Shown here piece after piece: positions 4,668 to 18,290 of a DNA stretch of 64,000 nt (the stretch's first letter is position 1; each line of letters opens with the position of its first letter). Source of the stretch: Nannocystis bainbridge. GTDB lineage: Bacteria > Myxococcota_A > Polyangia > Nannocystales > Nannocystaceae. The stretch covers positions 1,600,001-1,664,000 of the forward strand of contig NZ_JAQNDL010000003.1 of the NCBI RefSeq assembly GCF_028368995.1, given 5' to 3'. The notes beneath the pieces were generated by a model that was given only the letters and a program-made list of their open reading frames with translations, was not told the origin of the DNA and searched no databases. Position numbers and translations under genes: made by a program.

Positions 4668-6842
4668 GTGTCCTCCGATGGCCTGCCGGCGATCCTCGGC
4701 AACCGTGCGCTCTTCACGTTCGCGGTCGAGGGTTGCGCGGAGGAGCTGCGCGTCGTCCGCTTCACCGGCCGCGAGGCGCTCTCGTCGCTGTTCGAGTTCC
4801 GCATCGAGCTCGCCGCGGCGACGATGCCGCTCGACGAGCTGGTCGGCAAGCCCGCAGTTTTGACGATCGAGGGCCTGCACGCCACGCGCCACGTCCACGG
4901 CCACGTGTGCGAGGCCGGCTACATCGGCGAGAGCTCGAGCTACACGCTCTACGAGCTGACGCTGGTGCCGGCGATCTGGCGCCTGCAGCAGCGCAGCGAC
5001 TGCCGGATCTTCCAGAAGCAGACCACCCCGCAGATCTTGACCCGCGTGCTCGAGGCCGCGGGCCTGCCCCGCTCCGAGTTTCGCCTCGACCTGCAGGCCG
5101 CCTACGCGCCGCACGACTACTGCGTGCAATACCGCGAGAGTGACCTCGAGTTCGTCAGCCGACTGATGGAGGACGCGGGCATCTTCTATTATTACGAGCA
5201 CGCCGAGGATCGCCACGTGCTGGTGATGACGGACCGCGCCGGCAGCTGCGACCCGATCGAGGGCGACCCGACGCTGCGCTTCAACTTCGAGCACGACCGC
5301 GAGCACATCGACACGTTCCGCCTGAGCGAGGGCCTGCGGCCGCAGCGGGTCTCGCTGCGCGACCGCAACCTCCACCAGCCCGATCGATCGATGGAGGCGA
5401 GCGAGGGCGACGGCCGCGAGCGCGAGGTCTTCGACTACCCCGGCGGCTTTCAAGAGCCGGGCGCCGGCGCGCCGCACCACGGTGGGCTCAAGGCGCGCGT
5501 GCGGCTCGAGGCGCTGCAGGCCGACCGCCGGCGCGGCCTCGGCACCAGCGACAGCCCGCGCCTCGTGCCCGGCTTCTCGTTCACCTTCTCGGCCCCGGCG
5601 CGCGGCCACCTCGAGGGCGACTATCGCCTCGTCCGCGTGCGCCACCGCGGCGAGCAGCCGCAGGCGCTCGACGAGGGCGCCGCGGGCGAGTTCAGCTACT
5701 CGAACGAGTTCGAGTGCACCGACAAGCGGCTGCCGTACCGCCCCCCGCGGCAGACCGCGCGCCCGCAGATCCGCGGGGCCCAGACGGCGACGGTGGTCGG
5801 ACCGCCCGGCGAAGAGGTGCACGTCGACGAGCACGGCCGCGTGAAGGTCCAGTTCCACTGGGACCGCAAGGGCCAGCGCGACGACGACAGCTCGTGCTGG
5901 GTCCGCGTCGGCCAGGCGTGGGCCGGCAACGGCTTCGGCGCGCTGTTCATCCCGCGGGTCGGCCACGAGGTGCTCGTCGAATTCCTCGAGGGCGACCCCG
6001 ACCGCCCGATCGTCACCGGCAGCGTGTACACCGGCCTCAACACCCCGCCGTACCCGCTGCCGGCCGACAAGACGCGCAGCACGCTCAAGTCCGAGTCGAC
6101 GCCAGGCGGCGGCGGTTACAACGAGCTGCGCTTCGAGGACGCGAAGGGCCGCGAGGAGATCTTCCTCCACGGGCAGCGCGACTGGAGCGTGATCATCGAG
6201 CACGACGCGTCGCACCAGATCGGCCACGACGAGGCGCGCACGATCGCCAACGATCGCAGCAAATCGGTGGGCCACGATCAGAGCGAGTCGATCGGCCACG
6301 ACAAGACGATCGCGGTCGGCAACGACCACGCCGAGACGATCGCCCGCGACATGACGCTCGCGGTCGGCAGCAACCTGACCGCGGCCGTCGGCGCCAACAA
6401 GGCCGAGTCGGTCGCCCTGGCCAGCGCGCTGACGATCGGCGCCGTGTATCAGGTCAGCGTCGGCGGGGCGATGAACGAGACCGTCGGCCTCGGCAAGGCG
6501 GAGCAGGTCGGCCTGGCCCGGAGCGTGACTGTCGGCGCCGACAGCTCGGAGACCATCGGCGGCGGCAAGTCGGTGACCGCGGCCGACAACATCACCGCGA
6601 CCGCCGGCAACAACCTCGTGTTCGCCGGCGGCCGGCACGTCAACGTCACCGCCGGGAACAACCTCAACGTCGCCGTCGGCAAGCAGGCCAGCGTGATCGT
6701 CGCCGACAAGCTGACGTTCCAGTGCGGCGGCGCGACGATCGTCGTCAAGAAGAACGGCGAGCTCTCGATCCAGGCCGACAACCTCGACGTTCAGGCGCGC
6801 GGGCGGATCACCGTGCGCGGCGCCATGATCAAGCTCAACTGA
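4668..6842 (+). CDS. vgrG: Type VI secretion spike protein VgrG with C-terminal beta-helix repeats
   Basis: F.GREALSSLFEF, YCVQYRESDLEFVSRLMEDAGIFYY, GAQTATVVGPPGEEVHVDEHGRVKVQFHWDR, SCWVRVGQAWAG, IPRVGHEVLVEFLEGDPDRP. Start is approximate (in-frame GTG 4668 or TTG 4659). Confidence 0.96.
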   Translation: MSSDGLPAILGNRALFTFAVEGCAEELRVVRFTGREALSSLFEFRIELAAATMPLDELVGKPAVLTIEGLHATRHVHGHVCEAGYIGESSSYTLYELTLVPAIWRLQQRSDCRIFQKQTTPQILTRVLEAAGLPRSEFRLDLQAAYAPHDYCVQYRESDLEFVSRLMEDAGIFYYYEHAEDRHVLVMTDRAGSCDPIEGDPTLRFNFEHDREHIDTFRLSEGLRPQRVSLRDRNLHQPDRSMEASEGDGREREVFDYPGGFQEPGAGAPHHGGLKARVRLEALQADRRRGLGTSDSPRLVPGFSFTFSAPARGHLEGDYRLVRVRHRGEQPQALDEGAAGEFSYSNEFECTDKRLPYRPPRQTARPQIRGAQTATVVGPPGEEVHVDEHGRVKVQFHWDRKGQRDDDSSCWVRVGQAWAGNGFGALFIPRVGHEVLVEFLEGDPDRPIVTGSVYTGLNTPPYPLPADKTRSTLKSESTPGGGGYNELRFEDAKGREEIFLHGQRDWSVIIEHDASHQIGHDEARTIANDRSKSVGHDQSESIGHDKTIAVGNDHAETIARDMTLAVGSNLTAAVGANKAESVALASALTIGAVYQVSVGGAMNETVGLGKAEQVGLARSVTVGADSSETIGGGKSVTAADNITATAGNNLVFAGGRHVNVTAGNNLNVAVGKQASVIVADKLTFQCGGATIVVKKNGELSIQADNLDVQARGRITVRGAMIKLN

Positions 6843-6859
6843 GCAGCGCAGGAGATTCG

Positions 6860-8101
6860 ATGGCCGCGCGCGAGGTCGATCCGCTGTGGGACATCGTCGA
6901 GGAGCACTTCGACGAGGGCGAATTCCTGTGGCACGTCTGGCAGCAGAGCCTGATCGCCCCCGACTACAATCTCGACGAGGTCGCCGAGGGCCCCGAGGAG
7001 CGGTTGCTCGCGCACGTCGAGGGCCTGATCGTCAACGGGCCCCTGGTCGCCAGCCGACTGCTGCTGCCTGCGCTCGTCAGCGCCGCTCCGGCCCGCGTCA
7101 GCGTCGCCGCGCTGGCGCTGCTGCACGGTCCGCGCGGCGAGGCGGCGCTCGCCAACATCGTCGACGTCGTGCGCCGAAGGCCGCAGCAGCGCGGGCCTCT
7201 GGTGCGCGCCATGGCCTGCGTCGATGCGCCGTGGCTGCGGGCGCGCCTCCGCGAATTGCTGGCCGACGACGACCTCGGCGTTGTCGCCACCGCGGCTGCG
7301 GTGTTGACATTGCATCACGAGCCGCTCGGCGACGCCCTGGGGCTGCTGCTCGCCGACGACCAGAGCGCGACGCGAGCGCTGGCGCTGCGGGCCCTCGCCG
7401 ACGAGCCCGATCCGGGGAGATACGCGCGCGCCGTGCAGGCTGGCTTGCAGGAGCTCGACCCGATCGTGCTCGACGCGGCGATCGACGCCGGCGTGCGCCT
7501 CGGCCTCGCCCCCGCGTGGGCCCGCGCGCGCGAGCGCATGGCCGAGCCCGACGGCGGCGCCTCGATGTTGCTGTTGGCCTTGCGCGGCGAAGCGAGCGAC
7601 CTCGACGCGCTCGTCGCAGCCCTGCGCGACCGCAAGCGACGGCTGCCCGCCTTGTGGGCGCTCGGTTTTCGCGGCACGCCCGAGGTCGTCGACGCCGCGC
7701 TCGCATGGCTCGACGATCTCTCCGCGGGTCCGCTGGCCGGCGAGGTCTTCACCGCCGCGACCGGCATCGACCTCGCCGCCGCCGGCATGTCGCTGCCGCG
7801 CGACGACGATCACGAATCCTTCGACCATCGCCCCGAGGACGACCTGCCGCGGCCGGACCCGATGCTCGTCCTGCAGTGGTGGGCCCGGCACCGCCCGCAA
7901 TTCATCGACGGCCAGCGCTACCTCGCCGGTGCCCCGCGCTCGCACGCATCGCTGCTCCGCGAGCTGCGGTTCGGCGCCATGCGCCGGCGCCCCGGGCACC
8001 TCCTCGACCTCGCGCTCGACCTGCCGCCGCAGCGCCGCCCGCGGCTACCGCTCGGCGCGCCCACGGCCCAGCAGCTGCGCGCGCTTGCCTCGCTGAAGTG
8101 A
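6860..8101 (+). CDS. TIGR02270-family HEAT/helical-repeat protein (T6SS-linked)
   Basis: GGAG RBS then MAAREVDPLWDIVEEHFDEGEFLW..., EERLLAHVEGL, AGEVFTAATG, DLP.PD....WW, GQRYLAG, MRRR. Confidence 0.85.
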   Translation: MAAREVDPLWDIVEEHFDEGEFLWHVWQQSLIAPDYNLDEVAEGPEERLLAHVEGLIVNGPLVASRLLLPALVSAAPARVSVAALALLHGPRGEAALANIVDVVRRRPQQRGPLVRAMACVDAPWLRARLRELLADDDLGVVATAAAVLTLHHEPLGDALGLLLADDQSATRALALRALADEPDPGRYARAVQAGLQELDPIVLDAAIDAGVRLGLAPAWARARERMAEPDGGASMLLLALRGEASDLDALVAALRDRKRRLPALWALGFRGTPEVVDAALAWLDDLSAGPLAGEVFTAATGIDLAAAGMSLPRDDDHESFDHRPEDDLPRPDPMLVLQWWARHRPQFIDGQRYLAGAPRSHASLLRELRFGAMRRRPGHLLDLALDLPPQRRPRLPLGAPTAQQLRALASLK

Positions 8102-8110
8102 CGCGCGGGG

Positions 8111-9229
8111 CTACGACCCCGGCGTCGCCTGCTTGCGCGCCGCGCCGCTGCGAATGCAGTGCTTGAGGGCGTCGCGCAGCCTGGCGTGCACCGAGACGTG
8201 CGAAAGATCGATCCCCAGCGCCACGATCGTCTGCGCGATCGTCGGGTGGATACCGGTGAGGATCCCTTCCGCGCCCAGCAGCCGGATCGCCTGGATCATC
8301 CGGATCAGGTGGCTCGCCGTCCCCGTGTCGACCACCTCGACCCCGGTCAGATCGAGGATGGCGAATCGGGCCCGCGTCTGCGTCACCGCCTGCAGCAGGC
8401 TGTCCATGATCTCGGCGGTGCGCGCGGTGTCGATGAGGCCGACGATCGGCATCGTCAGCACCCCGTCCCACACCTCGATGATCGGCGTCGCTAGCACGCG
8501 GATCACCTCCTGCTGGCGCTCGACCAGCTCGAGCTTGCTGCGCAGCTCGAGCTCGGCGCGCTTGGCCTCCGACACGTTGACCGTCACGCCCACCACGCGC
8601 ACTTCGCCCGGAGCGCCGTTCACCGGGATGTACCAGGTGTCGAAGAACTCGCCGTACAGCTCGACGCCGCCGGTGAACTCCGGCCGCCCACCGATCGCCG
8701 AGGCCACGACGTCGTTGTTGCCGGCCGAGCCGTACATCTCGAAGATATTCTTGCCGACGAACTGGTCCATCGACATCCCGAGCGCCCGCATCGACTTGCC
8801 GTCCATGTAGAGGAACGTGCCCCGCTCGTCGGTCGCCCACAGCGAAATCTCGAGGTTGTCCTTGATCGCCGTCAGCATCGTCGCCTCGAGCGCCGCCGCG
8901 GCCTCCGCCTCCACGCGGGCCGTGACGTCGTGGCCGTAAACGACCGTGCCGGACCTGTCCGCGAGGCTCTGCGTCCACACCTCGATCGAAAGCGTCGCCT
9001 CGCCCTGGCGGATCTGCATCACCCTCGACGCGGGCCCGGGCTCGTCGGCCAGCGCGCGCCACGAGCCGCCCACGAGCGGCAGTACCTCGGCGACGTCGCG
9101 GCCGATCGCCGCCGCAGCACCTGTCCCGAAGACCAGCTCTGCTCGCCGGTTCCAGCCGACCACCCCGAGCGCGGCGTCGACCTCGATCACGATCAACGGG
9201 GCGTCCTGCAAGATACTCGCGTCGCTCAC
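8111..9229 (-). CDS. PAS-PAS-STAS protein (RsbR-like)
   Basis: PAS segments (WNRRAE.VFG; G.F....GK...LG....VGKNI) and a C-terminal STAS domain (LATPIIEVWDGVL.MPIVG.IDT.R, ILDLTGV.VVD, LLGA..ILTGI.P.IAQT). GTG start inferred at 9229. Confidence 0.9.
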   Translation of the reverse strand: MSDASILQDAPLIVIEVDAALGVVGWNRRAELVFGTGAAAAIGRDVAEVLPLVGGSWRALADEPGPASRVMQIRQGEATLSIEVWTQSLADRSGTVVYGHDVTARVEAEAAAALEATMLTAIKDNLEISLWATDERGTFLYMDGKSMRALGMSMDQFVGKNIFEMYGSAGNNDVVASAIGGRPEFTGGVELYGEFFDTWYIPVNGAPGEVRVVGVTVNVSEAKRAELELRSKLELVERQQEVIRVLATPIIEVWDGVLTMPIVGLIDTARTAEIMDSLLQAVTQTRARFAILDLTGVEVVDTGTASHLIRMIQAIRLLGAEGILTGIHPTIAQTIVALGIDLSHVSVHARLRDALKHCIRSGAARKQATPGS

Positions 9230-9440
9230 GGAACCCTGTGTATCCGAGGTTCCGCCGCCTGTCCTGCCCCTCGTCCGCGCACTGCCGCGCGCCCTGTGCA
9301 TCGGTCTCGTCGCTCGCGCCGGGTGTCCGTGTGATGCATCCCTCGGCCACTCTCCCGCGGCGCGAAGTCGCGTCGGCGCTCCGCGCTTCGTGAGAGATCG
9401 GGCACACCGGCGGCCCCTGCGAACGAGCATGCCGTCCGCG

Positions 9441-10541
9441 TCAGCCCGATGCTTCCAGCAGCTGCCGACCGAGCGCCTCCGGACAGCGCCACAGATCGGC
9501 CACCGGCTCATACGGACACACCGTCGTGCGCGCGCCCGATCGCGGCGCGGCTGGCGGCGCATCGTCCGCCGCGATGTCCGTGAGCCTGGTGGTCTCGCGC
9601 AGCTGCAGGTCCGCGTGCCCGTCGCCGTCGACATCGCGGGCCAGCCACACCGTCTCCGCCGTCGACTCGCTGCCGCCGACATCCTCCGCGCGCATCGCAT
9701 ACCGACGCGTCGCCGAGAACTGCACGTGCATGTCGGCCACCTCGAGGATGAACCCGACCTCCCCGCTCTCGTGGTCCATCGCCTGATCGTGCTGCGGCCG
9801 CTCGACCGGCACGATCACCGTCAGCTCCGAGCGCCCGTCGCCGTCGATGTCGTACGCCTTGAACTTGTGCGGCACGTCGTCGACCCGCAGCGAAGTCTCG
9901 AACAGCCGCCTCCGCCCCAGCACCGCCCCGTCACGCACCCGCGCGACCTCCCACGCGAACACCTCGCGCCCGGCTGCCGACCACATCACGTGCCGATCGG
10001 CGATGACCCCTTCAAGGCACACGCTGAGCTCCCCCGGGGTCGCTTCACACGCGTCCACCTGCGCCTCCAACCCCGCCAGCGCGGCCTCGAGCCGGCCCGC
10101 TCGCCGCTCCTGCGCCCGCCAGGCCCGCGCGCCGTACCAGCGCAGCAGCACCAGCTCCTCGCGCCCGACGGCCCGCCGCTCGACGACCTCGACCACCTCC
10201 GCGTCCTCACCCGCGAGCACCCGCGCGAGCACCTCGAGCTCGGCCGTATTCGTCGTCGTCACCCCATGCTTCGCCGCTTCGACCTTCGTCGTCTCGGGTC
10301 CAACTACCTTCCCCGCTTCAACCTTCGTCCCCGGTCCAACATCCTTCGCGGCTTCAGCCTCCGCCTCCGCGACCTTCCCCATCACCTTGTCCGTCGCCAC
10401 CACCGCGACCTCCTTCGTCGGCGGAGCCACGACCTCGACCACAGGCCCGCCGGCCTCGGCATCACTCCCGCGACCGGTGCAGCCCATCGCACCGCCCAGC
10501 GCGACGATCGACAGGAGCGCGCGCAGCCTCGAGATCGACAT
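9441..10541 (-). CDS. Hypothetical lipoprotein with two DxDGDG motifs
   Basis: Lipobox-like ALGGAMGC; short EAAK/EAGK-VGP-TK repeats; DIDGDG and DVDGDG putative Ca-binding loops. Confidence 0.7.
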   Translation of the reverse strand: MSISRLRALLSIVALGGAMGCTGRGSDAEAGGPVVEVVAPPTKEVAVVATDKVMGKVAEAEAEAAKDVGPGTKVEAGKVVGPETTKVEAAKHGVTTTNTAELEVLARVLAGEDAEVVEVVERRAVGREELVLLRWYGARAWRAQERRAGRLEAALAGLEAQVDACEATPGELSVCLEGVIADRHVMWSAAGREVFAWEVARVRDGAVLGRRRLFETSLRVDDVPHKFKAYDIDGDGRSELTVIVPVERPQHDQAMDHESGEVGFILEVADMHVQFSATRRYAMRAEDVGGSESTAETVWLARDVDGDGHADLQLRETTRLTDIAADDAPPAAPRSGARTTVCPYEPVADLWRCPEALGRQLLEASG

Positions 10542-10589
10542 GCGGCCAGTCAGCCACGTTCGCCCCCGCCGCGTCAACCGTGCCTCGCC

Positions 10590-12791
10590 TCATGGACTCG
10601 CATCACCGATTCGCAACTCCATCAGATGTTCGTCCCGCCAGCGGGCGACCACTTTGACTCCCCCCTCCTTCCACGTCACCGACGAAGCTCCGGTCTTCTC
10701 CGGATGTTTCACGGTTGCGGGGTGCCCGACAGCCTGCGACAGAATCCTGTCCGCTGGCCACGACGGTGAGTGCAGCGCCCGCCGCCCGACCGGGCCGACG
10801 GCGTAGATTCCGTCACAGTTGCCCGCTGCATCGAAACTGAAGAAGACCTCGGATCCCTCGAGCAAGGCGACCGAGAGCTTCTTGCTTCGCGAATGCAGCG
10901 GGGGGAACAGCGCGCGCAAGGTCGCCTCGTCGGCACCGATCGCAGCAACCTTGGCGTGTTCGTCGTTCACCCAGGTCTTCGCTTCCTTCGCCAGCGCCTG
11001 CAGCTCCTCGTCGTCCTTCAAGACAGCAAGCGTCTGTTCGGCCAGGGTTCCGACCTGCCCGAGCGCTTGAAGTCGCTCACCGGAGGCTTCTGCACCCAGC
11101 TCGCGGCGCACGAGCACATCGACGATCTTCCCTTTTGCCCGCTCGACTGCGGCGGCCCTCGCGGTGCTCCCCTGCGCAGCGTTGGCAGCCCTGGCGATCG
11201 TCAAACGACAGGGCTCGTCGGTGCACTGGCTGCTCCGCGAATCAATCGCGCGTGCCCGCTCCTCCGCGAGCTCTGGATCGCCGCGCCAGCTCTCGGCAAA
11301 CCACCGATCGATCGCGCCTTCGGCGTCCGTCGCATGACCATCCGCCACGAGCCTGCGGATCTCCGTCAGGCGCTCGGCTCGCGCGATCGTGGCCGCCGTC
11401 GCGGAGCGTTCCCTCCCGTGAGCAGCGATCTGATCCAGTCGCTTGAGCCGCTCCTCCCCCGCGGCCTCGTTCGCCTCGGCCAAAAGGATGGTGTCCTCGG
11501 CCTCGACGAAGGTCTGGTCGCTCGTCTCGCGCAGCGCCGCCAGCACCACGCGGGCCCGTCGTGTATCGCCGACGGCGAGCGCCTGATCGATCTCTTCGGC
11601 GGAGGGGCGAGCCACCACCCCGACGATGGCCATTGCCAGCAACGCGGCCGCCCAGAGCCCGAGGCACACCTGCTCGACTCGCTTCAGCCCCTTGAATCCC
11701 TTGCCGGTGCCCCATATTCGGAGGACTCCGCCTATCCATAATACCGCCAGCACCGTCGCCCCGAGCCATAACAGGCTCGTCGCACCGGCGGCATCTTTGA
11801 AGTACTCCGAGCGCCCGGTCGTGGAGCTCGGCATTGCGCTGCATACACTGACGAAGAGGGCGAGGATCGGCCACACGAAGAGCCGGCGACGAATCGGTCG
11901 CTTGGCTTCGGGCGTGCTGGCACCGACGAGCTGGTGGCCGGAGAGTACGAGCACGCCCGAGGTGCCGCACATGGCGTAAGATACGTCTCGTCGCGGCACC
12001 CGCAGCTGGATATAGTGCTGCTGCGCGACCCGCTCGAGGCGCGGGTCGACCCCCGCCGTCGCCCCCTGGACCGCCGAACGGCCATCCAGCTCCAGATCCG
12101 CGAGCGGCAAGGGGCCGGGAGCTTTCCGGTCGACGGCCACCGTGAACGCGGCGACGTCGTTCTCCCTCAGCAATCGAGGTTCGGTGAGCTGGCGATGAGC
12201 CAACGCGACGGGGGACTGAGGCTGGACCACGACGCTCACGCGTCTGGTCTCCACGAACGTGAGCCACGCCCGCTGATGGCCCGAGCCGTTGCAAGTCGTG
12301 CACGGAACGTTGCCGCGTCCCGCACAATTTCCACAACTGGCCTGCCCCGTTCCCTTGCACTGCTTGCACTTGTTGAGGCGGTTCGTGCTCGGGTTGCGGA
12401 ACCGCCCGGCGCCGCCACAGTTCGAACAGGAGACGCTCGCGCGGCCGCTGCACACCGAACAAGAGGCGGTGCCGGAGGCTCGACAGATCATGCAGCGCAC
12501 CACATGGGTCGTGCGTGCCTTCAAATCCTGAGCCGGGTAGGCGAACGGATCGAGCCGGGCGGGATCGACGCTCGGCTGCGTCACACCACGTTCGCTCGTC
12601 GTCGTGCGCTCTTCCCGAAGATCTCGGCGAATGATCTCGGTCAGCACCCGGTGGAGCACCTCGTCTTTGTTCTCGACCCCCGAGATCAACGATGCGAGCG
12701 CTCGCGGAGCGCCGAACACACTCCGAGCCCAAAGGTTGGCCGCTTCTGCGACATCGGGAGTGACAGGGGGGCTCGCGGGTCGGTCTACCAT
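10590..12791 (-). CDS. Membrane protein with DnaJ-type Cys-rich Zn-finger repeats, last gene of the His-Xaa-Ser operon
   Basis: Six CxxC motifs, most followed by xGxG-like residues (CMIC, CSVC, CSNC, CKQC, CGNC, CTTC). About three hydrophobic helices follow, then a large helical C-terminal region. Start overlaps the hxsA stop. Confidence 0.8.
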   Translation of the reverse strand: MVDRPASPPVTPDVAEAANLWARSVFGAPRALASLISGVENKDEVLHRVLTEIIRRDLREERTTTSERGVTQPSVDPARLDPFAYPAQDLKARTTHVVRCMICRASGTASCSVCSGRASVSCSNCGGAGRFRNPSTNRLNKCKQCKGTGQASCGNCAGRGNVPCTTCNGSGHQRAWLTFVETRRVSVVVQPQSPVALAHRQLTEPRLLRENDVAAFTVAVDRKAPGPLPLADLELDGRSAVQGATAGVDPRLERVAQQHYIQLRVPRRDVSYAMCGTSGVLVLSGHQLVGASTPEAKRPIRRRLFVWPILALFVSVCSAMPSSTTGRSEYFKDAAGATSLLWLGATVLAVLWIGGVLRIWGTGKGFKGLKRVEQVCLGLWAAALLAMAIVGVVARPSAEEIDQALAVGDTRRARVVLAALRETSDQTFVEAEDTILLAEANEAAGEERLKRLDQIAAHGRERSATAATIARAERLTEIRRLVADGHATDAEGAIDRWFAESWRGDPELAEERARAIDSRSSQCTDEPCRLTIARAANAAQGSTARAAAVERAKGKIVDVLVRRELGAEASGERLQALGQVGTLAEQTLAVLKDDEELQALAKEAKTWVNDEHAKVAAIGADEATLRALFPPLHSRSKKLSVALLEGSEVFFSFDAAGNCDGIYAVGPVGRRALHSPSWPADRILSQAVGHPATVKHPEKTGASSVTWKEGGVKVVARWRDEHLMELRIGDASP

Positions 12792-13438
12792 TCGATCTTC
12801 ACCGTGCCGGTCTGGCCATCGAGGATCTCGATCGTGACCTCATGATCACCGAGAAACCGGTTCTGAACGCGTACCGTATGAGAGCCGGGTTTCAGCACGT
12901 GCTTGCCCGTCGCGTCAGTCCCCAGCTCCTTGCCATCAACGAAGATCTTTCCGCCCGGGAAGGCCTCGAACGACACGTTTGCCGGCTTGGGCGGCTTCGG
13001 CTTGACGGGCTTCGGCGCCGGCTCCGGCGGCGGATGGACGGCCTTGCTCCCTCCGTGGCCGCTGCTGCTGCTGCTGCTTCCGCTGCTGCTGCCGCCGCTG
13101 CTGCTGCTGCTGCTGCTGCCGCCGCCCCCACCACCGCCGTAGCCGGAGGAGGGAGGCATCGCCGACATGTGCGAGGCGTGCGATCGATGGTACGAGCCGG
13201 ACGAGTGGCTGCTGTGGGAACGATGCGACGAATGAGACCGATGCGATCGATGTGCCAGGAGCGGCAGCTCGACGTCGGAGGGCGCCAGGAGCAGCGCCGG
13301 CGCGAGCTCTTCCTCCGGATCTTCCGTCCGCTTGCCGATCCGCGCCGCAGCGTCGGGGACGAGCAGGCCAGTCCCGGCTGCAGCCCCGAGCACGGCGAGA
13401 AGCGCGGCACCCAACGTCTTCAGTTTCCCCGATGCCAT
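12785..13438 (-). CDS. hxsA: His-Xaa-Ser repeat precursor fused to a C-terminal PEGA-like domain
   Basis: HRS-HRS-HSS-HRS-HSS-HSS-GSY-HRS-HAS-HMS, Gly/Ser and Pro-rich linkers, then PGGKIFVDGKELG...LKPGSHTVRV (PEGA-like). Sits beside two radical SAM genes. Confidence 0.88.
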   Translation of the reverse strand: MASGKLKTLGAALLAVLGAAAGTGLLVPDAAARIGKRTEDPEEELAPALLLAPSDVELPLLAHRSHRSHSSHRSHSSHSSGSYHRSHASHMSAMPPSSGYGGGGGGGSSSSSSSGGSSSGSSSSSSGHGGSKAVHPPPEPAPKPVKPKPPKPANVSFEAFPGGKIFVDGKELGTDATGKHVLKPGSHTVRVQNRFLGDHEVTIEILDGQTGTVKIEW

Positions 13439-13441
13439 GCC

Positions 13442-14638
13442 TCAATCCTCCCTCTGTGCGACCATCGGTCCGCTCTGCTCCGCGATTGCGAACGGAGCGA
13501 TCCCGCGGCTCCGCCGCACCACCGATGAAGCGAAGAACCCTCCGCACCGGGCTCGCGCCTCACATCGGGCGCACTCTTCGAGATATAGGTTCTTCCAGTC
13601 CGAGATCGACGCTCGTGCGAATCGGTGCAAGACCGGGTCCAGGACGCAGAGCTGATGGTTGTAAATGGACACGTGCATCCGCGCCCTGTCGAGGATCTCT
13701 ACCGCCTCGGCCAGCTCGCGCTGGTAATCCAGCGGATCGATCCATATTGCGTCGAGGTTGGAGCGAGCAAACCCCATGAGCTCGAGGCCCATCAGCGCGA
13801 CGTGGTCGACGAACAGGAGGTTCCTCGCCACGAAACGGGCGAAGGCCGGGAGCCTCTCGACCGTGTCGCGCTGGACGACGAAGCGTAGCTCGACGCGCAC
13901 CCGGTGCCGCTTGAGGTTCAAGATCCCTCGGATCGTCTGATCGAACGCGCCTCGGGCCTGGACCACGAAGTCGTGGACCTCGGGTAGATCGCCGTACAGC
14001 GGGATCCCCAGCATCAGATCTGGATGGCCGACCTTCGCCAACGCGAGGGCGAACTTCTCGTCCGCGAAGGCACGTCCGTTCGAGAGGATGTGGAGCGCCG
14101 TTCGTGGCAAGAACCGACGAAATCGATCCACCAGGTCCACCAGACGACTCCCGAGGAGGCCAGGCTCACCGCCGGTGATCCCGATCTCGGGCGTCTCCGG
14201 CGACATCATCGGGATGATCTCGAACAGCTCGTCGACCAGCCAGCCGTCGTCGCGCTCCTTCGGCGGTTGCGAGCACATGACGCAGTAGTTGTCGCATCGC
14301 TCGGTGACGAGCATGGAGTTGAAGGCCGAAGAGCGCCGGTACAGCACCGTCAACCCACTACGCTCGGGATGAATCCGGATGATGTCGCCGTCACCGAGGA
14401 AAGGAAATTCGGCGCCGATGAAGAAGACATTCGGCTGCCGGGCAACGCCTGTCTCGCTCCGCGTCAAGTAGGCTCGAAAACCGCCGGGGAGCTCGCATGG
14501 ACCCTCGACGAGCAAGATTTCACGAGAACGTGCGGCTGCAGGGAGCGCCGGGTTGGTGCATACGCGCCCGAGGAACGGCTCGGGCGACCGCTCGGGCGAC
14601 AGAGCGCGAAGGCTTCGTCCGTGGAGCTTGATCAGCAT
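13442..14638 (-). CDS. hxsC: His-Xaa-Ser system radical SAM maturase HxsC
   Basis: LVTERCDNYCVMCSQPP (CxxxCxxC), GITGGEP, LSNGR, SISDWKN, C-terminal CxxC....CGGFF. Confidence 0.92.
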   Translation of the reverse strand: MLIKLHGRSLRALSPERSPEPFLGRVCTNPALPAAARSREILLVEGPCELPGGFRAYLTRSETGVARQPNVFFIGAEFPFLGDGDIIRIHPERSGLTVLYRRSSAFNSMLVTERCDNYCVMCSQPPKERDDGWLVDELFEIIPMMSPETPEIGITGGEPGLLGSRLVDLVDRFRRFLPRTALHILSNGRAFADEKFALALAKVGHPDLMLGIPLYGDLPEVHDFVVQARGAFDQTIRGILNLKRHRVRVELRFVVQRDTVERLPAFARFVARNLLFVDHVALMGLELMGFARSNLDAIWIDPLDYQRELAEAVEILDRARMHVSIYNHQLCVLDPVLHRFARASISDWKNLYLEECARCEARARCGGFFASSVVRRSRGIAPFAIAEQSGPMVAQRED

Positions 14639-14642
14639 GGGT

Positions 14643-16103
14643 TCAGATCCAGCTCTGCAGGACTCGGCGGGCGGACGCGTCGTCCTCCATGAGGGCGATC
14701 AGGTGGCGGAGCACGGCCATCTGCTTTTTACAGAAGGACGAGAACGCCTTGTGGCCGATCACGTCTCCCTGCGTCGCCTTGTGAAAGACGGGGTCAGACC
14801 CGCAGTAGGGCATGAAGGCACAGTCGCTGCACATCGGCAGGCCCTCGAGCATCGAATCCTTCAACAGGTCGACGAGGGTATCGCTCGTCATGACCTCCTC
14901 GAAGGAGTCCTCGTCGAGATGCCCGAGTCTGAAGGTGTGATCGCCCATCTCCGCGAGCATTCTCCCCTCGTCGGAGGCATAGATCGCCCCATCATAGTTG
15001 TAGATGATGCCCGCGATCCCGAGCCCCGCCGGCGATTGCAAGTCGACGTAGCCGTTGCCGACAGGCGCGAACATCTTCTGCAGCAGGATGGCCGCGAATT
15101 CCTCGCGCATGGGATAGCCGCTGAGGTTGAGGTCGATGATATGCCGGAGCCCTTCGACGTAGAACTTCACCCAGTCGTCCACGTCGTAGCGGCGGACCAG
15201 ACTCGTGCGCACCGCGAAACCGTAAGGGCTCAGGCTGCGCAGGAATATCGAGTGAAAGCCCTGCTTGACGTACTCGTCGACGATCTCCCGCACCCGCGGC
15301 AGGCTCCCGGGCGAGGTCGTCATCAGGGCTGCTACCGCGTCAGGCCCGAGCGCTTCTCGGATGCGCTGGATCCCGTCGACCGCGGCGCGGTAGCTGCTAC
15401 CTCGCGGCAAAGCCCGGCGCTCGTCGTGCAGATCCGCGGGACCGTCGAGGGACGTCGAGAAGTAGATCCGGTGCCCCTTGCAGAAATCCAGGATCTCGTC
15501 GTTCAAGCGGGTCAGGTTCGAGGCGATGACGAACACGAGGTCGCGTCCGTGCTCCCGATTGAGGGACTCGGCCCGAAGTACGACGTGGCGGATCAAGTCG
15601 AAGTTGAGCAGGGGCTCTCCGCCTTGAAACTCGATCTTGATCGCGGGCGAGGGGCTGCGGAACACGAACTCGACTGCCCGGTCGGCGTGAGCCTGGCTCA
15701 TGTCGAAGCGGCTCTTCTCCTCCATCTGGCGCGAGACCTGGCAGTAGCTGCAGGTGTGGTCGCAGCGCAGCGTGACCACGAACATGTGCAGCGCCGTGAA
15801 GTCGGCGATCCGATCCGCCCGGCTTCGGTACTTGAGCGCGAGCAGATCGAGCGCGACCCTGGATTCGCCGTCGAACAGGAAGTGTCGGCTCTTGAGGTCG
15901 GCGTACAGCGGTGTGCCCGGCTGCAGTTCGTGCCGGAGCAGCGCCTGCAGCGCGGGCCGCTCCAGGACGACGTACTCCCCCACGTCGTTGGTGATCACGT
16001 AACGCCTGTCGTCGAGCCGAGAAAATCTGGCCGGCAGCAGCCGATAGGGGCCGCTCGGCGCGAAGGCGGAACGATCGCGGAAAGTGTCGGCGAGCTGGTT
16101 CAT
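14643..16103 (-). CDS. hxsB: His-Xaa-Ser system radical SAM/SPASM maturase HxsB
   Basis: LHMFVVTLRCDHTCSYCQVSR, IEFQGGEPLLNF, YVDLQSPAG, SDEGRMLAE, CSDCAFMPYCGSDP. ATG at 16103 overlaps the hxsD stop. Confidence 0.93.
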   Translation of the reverse strand: MNQLADTFRDRSAFAPSGPYRLLPARFSRLDDRRYVITNDVGEYVVLERPALQALLRHELQPGTPLYADLKSRHFLFDGESRVALDLLALKYRSRADRIADFTALHMFVVTLRCDHTCSYCQVSRQMEEKSRFDMSQAHADRAVEFVFRSPSPAIKIEFQGGEPLLNFDLIRHVVLRAESLNREHGRDLVFVIASNLTRLNDEILDFCKGHRIYFSTSLDGPADLHDERRALPRGSSYRAAVDGIQRIREALGPDAVAALMTTSPGSLPRVREIVDEYVKQGFHSIFLRSLSPYGFAVRTSLVRRYDVDDWVKFYVEGLRHIIDLNLSGYPMREEFAAILLQKMFAPVGNGYVDLQSPAGLGIAGIIYNYDGAIYASDEGRMLAEMGDHTFRLGHLDEDSFEEVMTSDTLVDLLKDSMLEGLPMCSDCAFMPYCGSDPVFHKATQGDVIGHKAFSSFCKKQMAVLRHLIALMEDDASARRVLQSWI

Positions 16104-16414
16104 CAGCGCTGCAGCAGGTCGGTGCGCGAGAACGCGTGCGCCAGGATCAGGGACCGCAACGCGTCCGTCTCCTCGTGAAGCTGAGCGCGAAGCTCCTCGT
16201 CGAGCAACTCTTGGTAGAAGACTCGGACGGCCTCCGCAGCGGCGGTATCGCTCGTCCGCGGCGGAAACGTGAAGCGCAGGATCGGCTCGTCCGAGTCCGA
16301 TGGTTCGAGGCGGACCGTGCACCGCTCCGCTACCCGATAGGCGGCCTTCTTGATCGCCGCTGGCCTGTATGTCTGTACGTCGATCCTCGTGTCGAACCTG
16401 TCATCGGCCGTCAT
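16103..16414 (-). CDS. hxsD: His-Xaa-Ser system small protein HxsD
   Basis: About 103 aa: Y...AIKKAAY...F.QELLDEELR.QL.EET..LR.LILAHAFS. First gene of the operon. Confidence 0.88.
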   Translation of the reverse strand: MTADDRFDTRIDVQTYRPAAIKKAAYRVAERCTVRLEPSDSDEPILRFTFPPRTSDTAAAEAVRVFYQELLDEELRAQLHEETDALRSLILAHAFSRTDLLQR

Positions 16415-16651
16415 GCCCGCTCCCAATACATGCGTCCCGCGACGCACTGGCTATGGCCCGAGGATAGAGGTTTCTTCGCCGATCTTCCAGCGCGCGCCAG
16501 GCGAGCATAGGTGGCACACAAACGCTGTTATCGAAGACAGTGGAAGTACGCTTCTCGGGTCGGATGAGCGTCAGCCTCGCCGGCTGGGTCTTCATCTGCG
16601 GAGATGATGCGGGTGGACACGTATGACACTTCCACCCGCCGGCTCGCGCAT

Positions 16652-16679
16652 GGGCTCCCGCCTCGTGAGGCGCGAGCCC
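16652..16679. terminator. GC-rich stem-loop after the di-heme cytochrome gene
   Basis: GGGCTC-C-CGCCT-CGTG-AGGCG-C-GAGCCC inverted repeat, 15 bp past the stop at 16695 (minus strand). No U-tract. Confidence 0.4.
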
Positions 16680-16694
16680 GCCGCTGCTGCCGTC

Positions 16695-18290
16695 TCACAG
16701 CGTCTTCAGGTACTCGATCACCGCCCGTCGCTCCTGCGCATCGAGGTGGTCACCGAACGGGTGCCCCGTGTTCCAGTGGCCCGTGATGGTCGTATCGTAC
16801 ACGTGCTTGCGTTCGTCGGCCGGCGCCCCGTCCTGGCCGTACGGCAGCTCGACCCATGGCCAGCCGACCGCCTCGGGGTCGTAGTTCGTGCTGTCGTAGT
16901 CTTCGCGGCGCCACCATTTCGGCCGGGCCTTGCTGTTCAGCACCAGCTCGATCGTCGGCACCGACGCATTGTGAAGGTACGGCGCGCTCGCCCAGATGCC
17001 GTCGAGCGGCGGCGCCACGTAGCCGACGAACGGGTCGCCGGTGGTGAGCTGGCCGACGTCGCCGTACCACGATGAATTGAACCAATCGGCGAACGGGCGC
17101 GCGTCGGCCTCGAAGGCCAGCAGCGGGTCGGTGCCGATCGTCGCCAGCGGCAGCAACATGTTCGGGTACGTCTCGAGCGCTGGATCGTCCGAATACGTGC
17201 CGTGGCAGCACGAGCAGTCGCGCACGAAGATCTCCTGGCCCTGGGCGGCCAGCTCCGCGTCGATCGCAAACGGGTACTTCGGCGCCTCGACCGACTCGAT
17301 GAACGCGCGGATGTTGTTGAAGTAGGAGAAGATGCCCTCCGCCTCCTCGACCGAATCGGTGCACAGGGCGCTGGCGTAGATCATCGTCGCCCGGTGGTCG
17401 CCGCGCGACATCCCGTTCCAGAACAGCCCGTGCTTCTTCTTGGTGTGCCACCACGGCGGCGTGTCGACCGGCAAGATGACCTCGGGCACCACCGTGTTCG
17501 GCTCGTCGAGCCACTCGAGCGTGTTGGCGTCATGGCGCGTCGAGAGCACCGCCGCCAGCGAGTCCGCCGGGTTGGTGCCGACCACCAGCATGCGCGTGTA
17601 GTCGCCGACGGCCTGGTAGCGCTGGGCCATGCGCGTCAGCTCCTCGAGCCCCGGGATCGGGATGCCGGGGATCGGGATCTCGGCCAGAAATCCGCCGATC
17701 TGCTCGGTGTAATCGGCGTCGGCCTTGCCGAGGCCGATGACCAGCTCGCCGTTGAATTTGCCGGCGTGACACTCGAGGCAATTGAGCGAGACGATCTCGG
17801 CGCCGCTGCTCTTCGAGGTGTGCACGGTCCAGTTGTAGGGCACCTGGGCGTTCTTGCCGGTGCGGCCGGGGAGCGACTCGCCCTCGCCGAACGACCCGAG
17901 GAGCGGGGCGGCCAGCGGAAACAAAACGAAGGGGATCCCGCACGAGACGTAGCCCTCGTTGAGGAGGGCGTGATAGCCCGCGGCGGCGTCGCCCTGGACC
18001 TGCTCGCTGCCGGGGATCGGGTAGCCCATAGCGCAGGCGGCCGGCGGCGGGTCGTCGCCGTCGGTGGTCGCCTCGCCGTGCGACGAGCCGGTCGTCGGCG
18101 GGTCGACCCCCGAATCACTGGCCTCGGTCGGGCCCGGGCCGGCGGTGTCCGCCGTCGTGCTCGCGCTGCCACCATTCGTGCCGTCGCTGCCGTCGCCGTC
18201 GCTGCCCTGGGCCGGCGGGTCGCCGTCGCCGCAGGCGGCCAGGGCCAGACATGTCGCTGCAATCCACGTTCTCTGCGTCATCGATGCCAT
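16695..18290 (-). CDS. Di-heme c-type cytochrome lipoprotein, RoxA/MauG-like
   Basis: Strong RBS (AGGAGGAG), lipobox LALAAC, two heme motifs CLECH and CSCCH, PPWWH, YVAPPLDGIWASAPYLHNASVPT, terminal N.GH.F...L...ER.AVIEYLKTL. Confidence 0.85.
   Translation of the reverse strand: MASMTQRTWIAATCLALAACGDGDPPAQGSDGDGSDGTNGGSASTTADTAGPGPTEASDSGVDPPTTGSSHGEATTDGDDPPPAACAMGYPIPGSEQVQGDAAAGYHALLNEGYVSCGIPFVLFPLAAPLLGSFGEGESLPGRTGKNAQVPYNWTVHTSKSSGAEIVSLNCLECHAGKFNGELVIGLGKADADYTEQIGGFLAEIPIPGIPIPGLEELTRMAQRYQAVGDYTRMLVVGTNPADSLAAVLSTRHDANTLEWLDEPNTVVPEVILPVDTPPWWHTKKKHGLFWNGMSRGDHRATMIYASALCTDSVEEAEGIFSYFNNIRAFIESVEAPKYPFAIDAELAAQGQEIFVRDCSCCHGTYSDDPALETYPNMLLPLATIGTDPLLAFEADARPFADWFNSSWYGDVGQLTTGDPFVGYVAPPLDGIWASAPYLHNASVPTIELVLNSKARPKWWRREDYDSTNYDPEAVGWPWVELPYGQDGAPADERKHVYDTTITGHWNTGHPFGDHLDAQERRAVIEYLKTL

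What the first reader, a model, noticed from the sequence alone, without database searches (positions are those of the whole stretch)
12785..13438. HxsA precursor is a modular protein: signal-like leader, 9 HxS triplets in two blocks, linkers, PEGA-like domain
Seen: K-rich then hydrophobic N-terminus ending AAA; an acidic leader with LLLAP; six HxS triplets, GSY, three more HxS (13163-13252); a poly-Gly/Ser linker; a Pro/Lys stalk; and a roughly 65-aa PEGA-like beta domain. His every third residue suits repeated three-residue crosslinks or a metal-binding face. Cytoplasmic radical SAM modification followed by export would be unusual (inference).
Basis: partly seen in the sequence, partly recalled or inferred. 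Interest (0 to 1): 0.7.

Follow-up and report, generated by a model that had tools for sequence, protein, structure and literature searches.

The report
HxS-repeat effector with a swapped anchor
This gene encodes the exported His-x-Ser repeat protein of a radical-SAM system recently shown to block phage DNA entry in E. coli; here its cell-wall anchor is replaced by a small beta domain that probably docks onto a previously unnoticed membrane protein encoded next door.

Summary
Window 12785-13438 (-) encodes a 217-aa protein with these parts: signal-like N-terminus, acidic leader, 6+3 in-register HxS triplets, a Gly/Ser linker, a Pro/Lys stalk and a 65-aa beta domain.

HxsC, HxsB and HxsD lie directly upstream and all pass their NCBIfam cut-offs. 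This is the HXS system, published in 2026 as an antiphage system with a periplasmic, rSAM-matured effector (PMC13128918).

The protein is not a canonical HxsA: TIGR03979 scores 28 bits against a cut-off of 121.65, and there is no peptidoglycan-binding domain. It belongs to an uncurated myxobacterial family whose C-terminus is PEGA-like.

New here: in 13 of 13 related loci this HxsA type sits beside a 733-aa membrane protein ("X"). X has a cytoplasmic DnaJ-like zinc-finger array, three TM helices and a periplasmic domain.
- X and PEGA-type HxsA occur in the same 3 of 401 sampled genomes.
- At least six X clusters carry the same PEGA-like domain fused to their C-terminus.
- A complex prediction supports docking (ipSAE 0.69 against 0.00 for the controls).
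- The cassette is a 7.4-kb insertion that three same-genus genomes lack.

Verdict: a new variant of a known system.

The parts
12785..13438 (-). hxsA-like gene, PEGA type: 217 aa plus stop
   Evidence: ORF. Weak partial hits only to HxsA, HxsA2 and HxsA3. 86 close full-length relatives.
13343..13438 (-). Residues 1-32: signal-peptide-like segment (K5, K7; core LGAALLAVLGAAAGTGLLV; P-D-A-A-A; predicted cut after A32)
   Evidence: AxA conserved (A30 in 77 of 87, A32 in 81 of 87). Cys near this segment, as a lipobox would need, in 2 of 87 members; none in the window protein. No SignalP was available.
13253..13342 (-). Residues 33-62: acidic leader with conserved P-L-L-L-x-P and L-L-A just before the first His
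   Evidence: L49 in 84 of 87, P53 in 72 of 87, A62 in 78 of 87. The same motif occurs in 15 of 19 HxS proteins that carry other C-terminal modules. TIGR03979 profile positions 34-76 align to residues 36-82.
13163..13252 (-). Residues 63-92: HxS array, 6 triplets, GSY, 3 triplets (9 His, 4 Arg)
   Evidence: H63, S65, H66 and S74 are invariant in 87 sequences. The family has 4-11 HxS, median 7.
13046..13162 (-). Residues 93-131: Gly/Ser low-complexity linker
   Evidence: 33 of 39 residues are G or S. Length and sequence vary freely among relatives.
12983..13045 (-). Residues 132-152: Pro/Lys stalk ending in the conserved PKPA
   Evidence: 10 Pro and 5 Lys. P152 is nearly invariant.
12788..12982 (-). 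Residues 153-217: PEGA-like beta-sandwich domain with family hallmarks PGG, D175, NRF and a terminal Trp
   Evidence: Pfam PEGA 15.6 bits, E 0.015; 66 of 87 relatives hit PEGA. AF2 pLDDT 95.2 with 7 strands. VIA best match 6hif_Y, Z 8.2, followed by transthyretin-like domains. The predicted interface with X uses the invariant residues.
13442..14638 (-). hxsC, radical SAM maturase
   Evidence: TIGR03977: 390.2 bits against a cut-off of 267.9. It is the only copy over the cut-off in the 11.05-Mb genome.
14643..16322 (-). hxsB, radical SAM/SPASM maturase. The listed ORF is probably too long; an in-frame ATG at 16103 would overlap the hxsD stop by 1 nt.
   Evidence: TIGR03978: 607.8 bits against a cut-off of 370; the match starts at residue 95. 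Start position read.
16103..16447 (-). hxsD
   Evidence: TIGR03976: 56.3 bits against a cut-off of 50.
10590..12791 (-). Gene 'X', candidate fifth component. Six invariant CxxC pairs (DnaJ/BSD2-like zinc-finger array), three TM helices, a helical repeat region and a C-terminal beta domain.
   Evidence: No Pfam or NCBIfam family. Alignment A4. PDB profile hits to BSD2 (E 7e-4) and the DnaJ CR domain (E 0.003). AF2 pLDDT 87.4. Adjacent to PEGA-type HxsA in 13 of 13 related loci. The collection's own gene call starts 24 codons later, giving 709 aa.
9266..16693 (.). 7.4-kb accessory insertion carrying an FG-GAP ORF, X, hxsA, hxsC, hxsB and hxsD
   Evidence: Same-genus genomes match the flanks at 81-86% identity up to 9265/9293 and from 16694. 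Between the flanks they hold only 279, 206 or 1193 nt. GC is 0.63-0.69 inside against 0.69-0.77 outside.

Best explanation
The ORF is the substrate and effector protein of a myxobacterial variant of the HXS radical-SAM system.

Proposed course of events:
1. The precursor is made with an N-terminal signal peptide and an acidic leader. The leader motif (PLLLxP ... LLA-H) is shared by HxS proteins of every architecture, so it is most likely the handle recognised by HxsB/HxsC/HxsD.
2. HxsB/HxsC/HxsD modify one or more HxS triplets in the cytoplasm.
3. The protein is exported and cut after A32. By analogy with E. coli it may be trimmed further.
4. In the periplasm, the C-terminal PEGA-like beta-sandwich takes the place of the peptidoglycan-binding domain of E. 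coli HxsA. It docks onto the periplasmic C-terminal beta domain of the neighbouring inner-membrane protein X.
5. The roughly 60-residue Gly/Ser plus Pro/Lys spacer then lets the cationic His/Arg array reach out from the inner-membrane surface. By analogy with E. coli HXS, the array interferes there with phage DNA entry.

Shown here: the gene content, the architecture, the fold of the domain, the co-occurrence with X, the fusions, and the island.

Inferred: export, the chemistry of the modification, docking in vivo, and the antiphage role.

My odds for the separate steps:
- HxsBCD substrate: 0.95.
- Exported: 0.8.
- PEGA-like domain docks on X: 0.6.
- Antiphage function: 0.5.
For: System identity:
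- HxsB, HxsC and HxsD all pass their curated cut-offs. The genes sit 3-4 nt apart or overlap, in the order D-B-C-A. That is the order in 99.6% of HXS systems in PMC13128918.
- In the E. coli system, HxsA has a signal peptide, five HxS repeats and a peptidoglycan-binding domain. It is periplasmic, needs HxsB/C/D for N-terminal processing and carries a +8 Da change. It restricts 110 of 113 phages.

Architecture of this protein:
- Signal-peptide features hold across the family.
- The leader motif occurs in 15 of 19 HxS proteins with other C-terminal modules.
- Those other modules are envelope-targeting: PG_binding_1 in 4, MYXO-CTERM in 1, PEGA in 1.
- PEGA homology is supported.

Link to X:
- X is adjacent in 13 of 13 distinct related loci, in three different gene orders. 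One locus has two tandem A-X pairs.
- Full-length X and PEGA-type HxsA are found in the same 3 of 401 phylum genomes.
- Of the 150 best X representatives, 6 carry a 77-84 aa C-terminal extension; so does P0131. All seven extensions match HxsA 145-217 by BLASTP (E 5e-19 to 3e-9), and an unfused control does not.
- Complex prediction: ipSAE 0.69/0.69/0.71 against a best control of 0.00. The tool's mark was reached by 116 of 157 solved complexes and 2 of 215 mismatched pairs. The runs agree in at least 91% of contacts, and the partner's pLDDT is at least 88.
- The predicted interface uses invariant residues on both sides: P161, G162, G163, D175, N193, F195 and W217 in HxsA; Y663, R717, E725 and A731 in X.
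- X's topology puts its C-terminal domain outside the cytoplasm. K/R-rich segments precede TM1 and lie between TM2 and TM3.

Accessory nature:
- The cassette is an insertion, and it was not found in 10 of 10 same-genus genomes.
Against: - No experiment exists on any PEGA-type system. The antiphage role is carried over from E. coli, whose effector shares only the leader and the repeats. TIGR03979 scores 28 bits against a cut-off of 121.65.
- This protein's own PEGA score is below Pfam's threshold.
- Foldseek gave no PDB match at E <= 1e-3. VIA Z-scores of 5-8 are in the range the tool calls common.
- The complex score is a model's own confidence, it was computed with my alignments, and conserved surfaces attract such models.
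- The fusions show a functional link and a shared compartment. They do not show that the free domain docks.
- No signal-peptide predictor was available.
- 12 of 73 N-complete relatives have a twin-arginine-like n-region and this protein does not, so the export route is open.
- PADLOC (2023) has no HXS model.
Confidence: 0.6

Rival explanations
1. The PEGA-like domain binds the cell wall or another envelope polymer directly, as a plain functional substitute for PG_binding_1. X then does something else, for example holding the unfolded precursor with its DnaJ-like zinc fingers for the rSAM enzymes and handing it to the export machinery.
For: - The domain occupies the position of the peptidoglycan-binding domain, which is required in E. 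coli.
- Structural neighbours include carbohydrate-binding modules and transthyretin-like domains.
- X's zinc-finger region resembles the DnaJ and BSD2 chaperone domains.
- The E. coli authors suspect that additional host factors are needed for maturation and export.
Against: - Recurrent fusion of the same domain subtype to X's periplasmic end.
- A complex score well above its controls, centred on family-invariant residues.
- The family-specific hallmarks (NRF, terminal Trp) are kept in the fusions although generic PEGA scores are poor: 1 of 7 hits PEGA at E <= 0.1.
- The two roles are not mutually exclusive.
Confidence: 0.2
2. The system is not a phage defence. The exported His-rich array is a periplasmic metal-binding or redox module (Ni/Zn/Cu buffering or delivery) whose His side chains are tuned by rSAM chemistry.
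For: - Nine His at a three-residue spacing, with further His in the linker.
- A di-haem cytochrome c peroxidase-like gene flanks the locus.
Against: - That flanking gene lies outside the insertion and is conserved in same-genus genomes that lack the cassette.
- The distribution is patchy and island-like.
- The only experimental data on HxsBCD systems show antiphage activity and DNA binding.
- No metal transporter or regulator lies in the cassette.
Confidence: 0.1
3. It is a classical RiPP precursor. The HxS core is crosslinked triplet by triplet, like a three-residue cyclophane, then cut out and released as a small peptide. The rest of the protein is only a carrier.
For: - HxsB shows distant similarity to cyclophane-forming and other peptide-modifying rSAM/SPASM maturases such as YhhB, GrrM/OscB, FxsB and XyeB.
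- The leader-then-core layout.
- PMC9062424 treats HxsB as a RiPP-type enzyme (passages read).
Against: - The cassette holds no protease and no peptide exporter.
- A folded, strongly conserved C-terminal domain and a dedicated partner protein are hard to explain for a discarded carrier.
- In E. coli, the mature product retains residues 48-214.
Confidence: 0.05

Closest known systems
E. coli HXS antiphage system and its effector HxsA (TIGR03979; Li et al., Nat Commun 2026, PMC13128918)
   Same: - HxsD-HxsB-HxsC-HxsA operon order.
- HxsB, HxsC and HxsD are members at equivalog level.
- The effector has about the same length (217 against about 214 aa).
- The effector starts with a signal peptide, then a short required leader, then tandem HxS repeats, then a spacer and a C-terminal targeting domain.
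   Different: - 9 HxS triplets instead of 5.
- A PEGA-like beta-sandwich instead of the peptidoglycan-binding domain.
- It fails the TIGR03979 cut-off.
- An extra co-conserved membrane protein X.
- Host is in Myxococcota, whereas 99.7% of the systems surveyed in the paper are in Pseudomonadota.
- The paper's main text does not contain the words PEGA, Myxococc or zinc. Its supplements were not read.
NCBIfam HxsA2 (NF038296), HxsA3 (NF038309) and HxsA4 (NF038313)
   Same: They are alternative HxS-repeat partner proteins of Hxs-type rSAM pairs. The repeat region aligns weakly.
   Different: All scores are far below the cut-offs: 21.7 against 48 for HxsA2 and 25.4 against 65 for HxsA3; HxsA4 was not reported at E <= 0.01 for this protein. 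These models are 81-96 positions long and have no PEGA-like end.
PEGA domain (Pfam PF08308), defined on cell-surface proteins (PMC2447325, search listing only)
   Same: An all-beta domain of about 65-70 aa with the pattern P-x-G-x, V/I-x-V/I-D-G, G-x-H-x-V, found in envelope proteins. The family profile and PEGA find each other.
   Different: - The motif reads PGG instead of PEGA.
- It has its own invariant N-R-F and a terminal Trp.
- This sequence is below the gathering score.
- No ligand is established for PEGA domains in general (recalled).
DnaJ / BSD2 cysteine-rich zinc-finger domain (for protein X)
   Same: Repeated CxxCxGxG-type pairs. Profile hits to 6ekb and 1exk and a Foldseek local match to 6ekb.
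   Different: - Six CxxC pairs instead of four.
- Embedded in a membrane protein with a large periplasmic part.
- No J domain.
Other rSAM-modified proteins that are exported after modification: the quinohaemoprotein amine dehydrogenase small subunit (QhpD) and anaerobic sulfatase maturation (recalled from general knowledge, not checked here)
   Same: Cytoplasmic rSAM/SPASM modification of a protein that ends up in the periplasm. HxsB hits these families distantly: TIGR03906 at E 1e-22 and TIGR03942 at E 5e-19.
   Different: Different substrates, different chemistry and different accessory genes.

Membership tests
HXS system (hxsA-D) | HxsB radical SAM/SPASM protein over the TIGR03978 cut-off | tested here: met
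   607.8 bits against 370.
HXS system (hxsA-D) | HxsC radical SAM protein over the TIGR03977 cut-off | tested here: met
   390.2 bits against 267.9. Sole copy over the cut-off in the genome.
HXS system (hxsA-D) | HxsD (TIGR03976) present | tested here: met
   56.3 bits against 50.
HXS system (hxsA-D) | Gene order D-B-C-A on one strand | tested here: met
   Coordinates. The paper reports this order in 99.6% of systems.
HXS system (hxsA-D) | Protection against phages by blocking DNA entry | not testable with these tools
   Shown experimentally only for the E. coli system.
Canonical HxsA (TIGR03979) | Whole-protein score over the curated cut-off | tested here: not met
   28 bits against 121.65. 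Only profile positions 34-76 of 190 align.
Canonical HxsA (TIGR03979) | Tandem HxS repeats after a signal peptide and leader | tested here: met
   Nine in-register triplets. Leader motif shared.
Canonical HxsA (TIGR03979) | C-terminal peptidoglycan-binding domain, required in E. coli | tested here: not met
   No PF01471 hit at E <= 1. By contrast, P0094, P0099, P0103 and P0105 have it.
PEGA domain (PF08308) | Score over the gathering threshold of 20.8 bits | tested here: not met
   15.6 bits, E 0.015, covering residues 161-215 and profile positions 11-65 of 71.
PEGA domain (PF08308) | Homology at family level | tested here: met
   66 of 87 family members hit PEGA at E <= 0.1, best 1.4e-5. Outside-family matches of the family profile are PEGA in 7 of 7, and 4 of the 7 are above the threshold.
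PEGA domain (PF08308) | Small all-beta sandwich fold | tested here: met
   AF2 pLDDT 95.2 with 7 strands. Nearest solved folds are 6hif_Y (Z 8.2, rmsd 2.6 A, 69 aligned) and the transthyretin-like domains of carboxypeptidase D (Z 5.6-5.7). This fold class is generic.
Cleavable N-terminal signal peptide | Positive n-region, hydrophobic h-region and small residues at -3 and -1 | tested here: met
   K5 and K7; KD15 maximum 2.18; A30-A31-A32. Family-wide conservation.
Cleavable N-terminal signal peptide | Positive call by a trained predictor, and actual cleavage and export | not testable with these tools
   No SignalP or similar tool was available. An uncleaved signal anchor is not excluded.
Three-residue cyclophane RiPPs (triceptides) | A -2 Da crosslink per aromatic-x-x motif, made by one rSAM/SPASM enzyme | not testable with these tools
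   HxsB gives only distant hits to cyclophane maturases, E 4.6e-17 to 4.3e-10, far below their cut-offs. E. coli HxsA shows +8 Da on one motif.
DnaJ-type cysteine-rich domain (protein X) | Repeated CxxC pairs that coordinate zinc | tested here: inconclusive
   Twelve invariant Cys in six CxxC pairs. PDB profile hits at E 7e-4 and 0.003. Metal binding was not tested.

The most novel reading that the evidence does not exclude
X is a dedicated transmembrane partner that the four-gene E. coli system lacks.

Its cytoplasmic DnaJ-like zinc-finger domain would capture the unfolded HxsA precursor for HxsB/C/D and for export. Its periplasmic beta domain would then receive the PEGA-like end of the matured effector. 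The result is a two-protein, inner-membrane-anchored gate that places the modified HxS array exactly where phage DNA crosses the membrane.

The anchoring module of HxS effectors (peptidoglycan binding, MYXO-CTERM, PEGA plus X, and at least one further unknown domain) would then be an exchangeable address label. That label would decide at which envelope layer DNA entry is intercepted.
Probability: 0.3. Interest if true: 0.8.

Novelty: new variant of a known kind. Interest (0 to 1): 0.6.

Why it matters
The HXS system was reported in 2026 as the first defence that stops phage DNA during entry. Where and how its effector acts in the periplasm is still open.

A natural variant that exchanges the peptidoglycan anchor for a docking domain plus a dedicated inner-membrane partner gives a direct handle on that question:
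- It predicts that position in the envelope is a designed property of the effector, not an accident.
- It names specific residues to mutate on both partners.
- It offers a candidate for the 'additional host factors' that the E. coli authors could not identify.
- It shows that surveys keyed on canonical HxsA miss whole branches of the system outside Pseudomonadota.

Tried and rejected
- The search for related loci with the 87-sequence alignment failed because no stretch was conserved enough. A 12-sequence alignment worked.
- Foldseek against the PDB gave no match at E <= 1e-3 for either the PEGA-like domain or X. The VIA wide search gave only generic beta-sandwich neighbours with Z of 8.2 or less.
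- The PDB sequence profile of the domain gave only 6hif_Y at E 0.037.
- PADLOC 2023 has no HXS model. It returned only weak viperin-type rSAM hits.
- The promoter and terminator scan of 9000-17000 found nothing beyond chance: 0 promoters and 3 terminator-like sites, against 2.8 expected.
- The search of earlier findings returned nothing for this genome.
- tblastn missed the HxsA of locus L066. Reading the ORF showed that it is present.
- Four weaker X-like paralogues match only the N-terminal and TM parts of X. They have no Hxs genes within the 13-18 kb fetched, so they were not counted as the same system.
- Lipoprotein reading rejected: the window protein has no Cys near the signal peptide, and only 2 of 87 relatives do.
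- Tat export for this protein is not supported by its own n-region, although 12 of 73 relatives have RR-x-hydrophobic-hydrophobic.
- The FG-GAP ORF inside the island has no counterpart in any related locus, so it was not counted as part of the system.
Full report
**What is there.** Window 12785-13438 on the minus strand is an ORF of 217 codons. A GGAGG lies 8 nt before the ATG, inside the end of the upstream gene (read). One search gives the segments:
- Residues 1-32: Lys5 and Lys7, then a hydrophobic core, ending P-D-A-A-A.
- Residues 33-62: acidic, with LLLAP.
- Residues 63-92 (13163-13252): six HxS triplets, GSY, then three more HxS triplets, all in one register.
- Residues 93-131: 33 of 39 residues are Gly or Ser.
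- Residues 132-152: 10 Pro and 5 Lys.
- Residues 153-217: the C-terminal domain.

In 100,000 shuffles of the protein, 9 or more HxS occurred 6 times. An in-register run of 6 or more never occurred.

**The system.** The three genes directly upstream on the same strand pass their curated NCBIfam cut-offs:
- HxsC: 390.2 bits against 267.9.
- HxsB: 607.8 bits against 370.
- HxsD: 56.3 bits against 50.

The gaps between genes are 3-4 nt. The likely hxsB start at 16103 overlaps the hxsD stop by one base (read). This is the only HxsC over the cut-off in the 11.05-Mb genome.

A full-text search for HxsA, HxsB or His-Xaa-Ser found 37 papers. One is decisive: Li et al., Nat Commun 2026, PMC13128918. I read its abstract and sections 6, 8, 9, 10, 11 and 33. 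I did not read its supplements. Its bioRxiv version appeared in the search listing only. The paper reports the following for E. coli HXS:
- It restricts 110 of 113 coliphages by blocking DNA entry.
- HxsA has a signal peptide (residues 1-22), five HxS repeats and a peptidoglycan-binding domain, and it is periplasmic.
- HxsB, HxsC and HxsD are all needed for N-terminal processing.
- One SHRSS motif carries a +8 Da change.
- The signal peptide, residues 23-47, each repeat and the peptidoglycan-binding domain are all required.

**Why this protein is still not a canonical HxsA.** It scores 28 bits against TIGR03979, whose cut-off is 121.65, and only profile positions 34-76 align. It is also far below HxsA2 and HxsA3. 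It has no PG_binding_1 domain.

A search of 5.8 billion clustered proteins gave 106 hits. Eighty-seven of them have E <= 1.8e-18, and 86 of these were used with the query in alignment A1. Sources label these proteins 'hypothetical' or 'PEGA domain-containing protein' (Sorangium, Polyangium, Myxococcus stipitatus, Kofleriaceae). One JGI record calls its member HxsA.

All share the same plan:
- A hydrophobic N-terminal core in 79 of 87; the rest are N-terminally short.
- A at -3 in 77 of 87 and A at -1 in 81 of 87.
- P-L-L-L-x-P, and L-L-A before the first His.
- 4-11 HxS triplets (median 7).
- A free-running low-complexity spacer.
- P-K-P-A, then a conserved domain ending in Trp in 85 of 87.

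**The C-terminal domain.** This sequence alone is below Pfam's PEGA threshold: 15.6 against 20.8 bits, E 0.015. At family level the homology holds:
- 66 of 87 members hit PEGA at E <= 0.1, best 1.4e-5.
- When the family profile was run over 401 genomes of the phylum, its C-terminal part matched long unrelated ORFs in 85 further genomes.
- Seven such matches were scanned and all seven are PEGA, four of them above the threshold.
- AlphaFold2 with the family alignment gives a 7-strand all-beta domain with pLDDT 95.2 and pTM 0.79.

Foldseek found nothing at E <= 1e-3. The wide VIA search gave 6hif_Y (Z 8.2, rmsd 2.6 A, 69 residues) and then transthyretin-like and carbohydrate-binding sandwiches at Z 5-6. 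That fits the fold class but does not discriminate within it.

**Modularity across HxS proteins.** The 19 weaker hits (P0088-P0106) keep the leader motif in 15 of 19 but end differently:
- PG_binding_1 in four.
- PEGA above the threshold in one.
- MYXO-CTERM above its cut-off in one; several others have similar Cys-hydrophobic-Arg tails.
- HxsA3 in one.
- An unassigned beta-rich end in seven.

The constant part is the signal peptide, the leader and the HxS array. The variable part is an envelope address.

**A fifth gene.** The ORF just downstream, 10590-12791 (-), encodes a 733-aa protein I call X. Its ORF overlaps the hxsA stop by 7 nt, although the collection's own gene call starts 24 codons later. 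It has no Pfam or NCBIfam family and its 25 relatives are all 'hypothetical'.

Its alignment shows twelve invariant Cys in six CxxC pairs. A PDB profile search links these to the BSD2 and DnaJ cysteine-rich domains (E 7e-4 and 0.003). AlphaFold2 (pLDDT 87.4) gives:
- an N-terminal beta/zinc-finger part;
- TM helices at 294-318, 329-359 and 371-393;
- a helical repeat region;
- a C-terminal beta domain at 632-729.

K/R-rich segments before TM1 and between TM2 and TM3 place the N-terminus in the cytoplasm and the last roughly 340 residues in the periplasm. This is inference from the positive-inside rule.

**Evidence that X belongs with this HxsA type.**
1. Adjacency. I examined 8 loci from two searches and 6 more from a class-wide search. 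One locus (L061) duplicates L041, judged by identical alignment figures. That leaves 13 distinct loci, and PEGA-type HxsA lies next to X in 13 of 13. The order is C-A-X in ten, X-A-D-B-C in one, and X divergent from A-D-B-C in two. One locus has two tandem A-X pairs.
2. Co-occurrence. Full-length matches to both families occur in the same 3 of 401 phylum genomes.
3. Fusions. A profile search of 1.84 billion representatives found 267 X relatives at E <= 1e-30. Among the 150 listed, six have a 77-84 aa C-terminal extension. These six and P0131 all match HxsA 145-217 (37.5-46% identity, E 5e-19 to 3e-9). An unfused control does not. The fusions keep the PGG, D, NRF-like and terminal-Trp hallmarks (read). 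The extensions hold only a Pro-rich linker and the domain, with no signal peptide and no HxS, so they are not read-through of a neighbouring hxsA.
4. Complex prediction. X 396-733 with HxsA 145-217 gave ipSAE 0.69/0.69/0.71 against a best control of 0.00. The tool's mark was reached by 116 of 157 solved complexes and 2 of 215 mismatched pairs. The runs agree in at least 91% of contacts and the partner's pLDDT is at least 88. The contacts involve HxsA 158, 160-164, 174-176, 192-196 and 216-217, and X 639-733. They include the invariant P161, G162, G163, D175, N193, F195 and W217, and Y663, R717, E725 and A731.

The score is a model's confidence, obtained with my own alignments. It supports binding and does not show it. 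No similar solved complex turned up in the fold searches, so a pass from memory is unlikely.

**Accessory nature.** Three same-genus genomes match the window's flanks at 81-86% identity, up to 9265/9293 and from 16694. Between the flanks they hold only 279, 206 and 1193 nt, where the window has 7.4 kb. GC is 0.63-0.69 inside and 0.69-0.77 outside. X was not found in 10 of 10 same-genus genomes, nor in 392 of 401 genomes of the class; that search used a stricter first look, so these counts are a floor. Such patchiness fits a mobile defence cassette, but it is not proof of one.

**Most likely mechanism.** See Best explanation. The shown parts are the architecture, the homology, the linkage, the fusions and the island. 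The inferred parts are export, the chemistry, docking in the cell and antiphage function.

One arithmetic remark, mine and not the paper's: +C -4H (+8 Da) equals one added CH2 plus three losses of 2 H. The published mass therefore does not exclude a crosslink-type chemistry within one motif.

**What stays open.**
- The export route: 12 of 73 N-complete relatives have a twin-arginine-like n-region and this protein does not.
- Whether the N-terminal segment is cleaved or acts as an anchor.
- What the zinc-finger domain of X does.
- Whether the PEGA-like domain also binds wall material.

Neither the paper's main text (0 occurrences of PEGA, Myxococc or zinc) nor the 21 papers that mention 'PEGA domain' (listing only) describe this variant. 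Within those two searches it is not in print.

Noticed in passing
window 10590-12791 (-): A 733-aa uncharacterised membrane protein X. It has six invariant CxxC pairs (DnaJ/BSD2-like), three TM helices, a periplasmic helical-repeat region with an invariant CxDDPC pair, and a C-terminal beta domain. It is co-conserved with PEGA-type HxsA.
   Followed up: yes
window 9266-16693: The cassette is a 7.4-kb insertion relative to three same-genus genomes and has lower GC than its flanks. No integrase, tRNA gene or terminal repeat was looked for at the borders.
   Followed up: partly
window 9441-10577 (-): An FG-GAP repeat ORF (378 aa) lies inside the insertion but has no counterpart in any related Hxs locus, so it is cargo of unknown relation.
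   Followed up: partly
L042, about 5471-10521: A Kofleriaceae MAG contig carries two tandem HxsA-X pairs after a single hxsD-B-C set. This suggests the effector-plus-anchor pair duplicates as a unit.
   Followed up: no
P0168, P0188, P0192, P0197 (X-PEGA fusion proteins): Several fused forms have lost most or all of the zinc-finger array: two CxxC pairs remain, or none. The cytoplasmic module seems dispensable when the PEGA-like domain is attached in cis.
   Followed up: no
P0088, P0096, P0098, P0100, P0101, P0102, P0106: This is a further class of HxS-repeat proteins. They share an unassigned C-terminal domain of about 70 aa (motif G-[DE]-x-I-G-D-C-x-L-x-E-I ... L-K-P) with no Pfam hit.
   Followed up: no
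G201:C119, G129:C28, G115:C58, G120:C9 (L057-L060): These are distant paralogues of X's N-terminal zinc-finger and TM part with other C-terminal ends. No Hxs genes lie within the 13-18 kb fetched, so this may be a wider family of membrane proteins with exchangeable periplasmic domains.
   Followed up: partly
window 14643-16322 (-): The listed hxsB ORF overlaps hxsD by 220 nt. The family match starts at residue 95, and an in-frame ATG at 16103 would give a 1-nt overlap with the hxsD stop, which is the more likely start.
   Followed up: partly
family alignment A1: 12 of 73 N-complete PEGA-type HxsA proteins have an RR-x-hydrophobic-hydrophobic n-region resembling a Tat signal. The window protein has K-L-K instead.
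   Followed up: partly
window 16695-18497 (-): A RoxA-like di-haem cytochrome c peroxidase-family gene flanks the insertion. It is conserved in same-genus genomes that lack the cassette, so it is not part of the system.
   Followed up: partly
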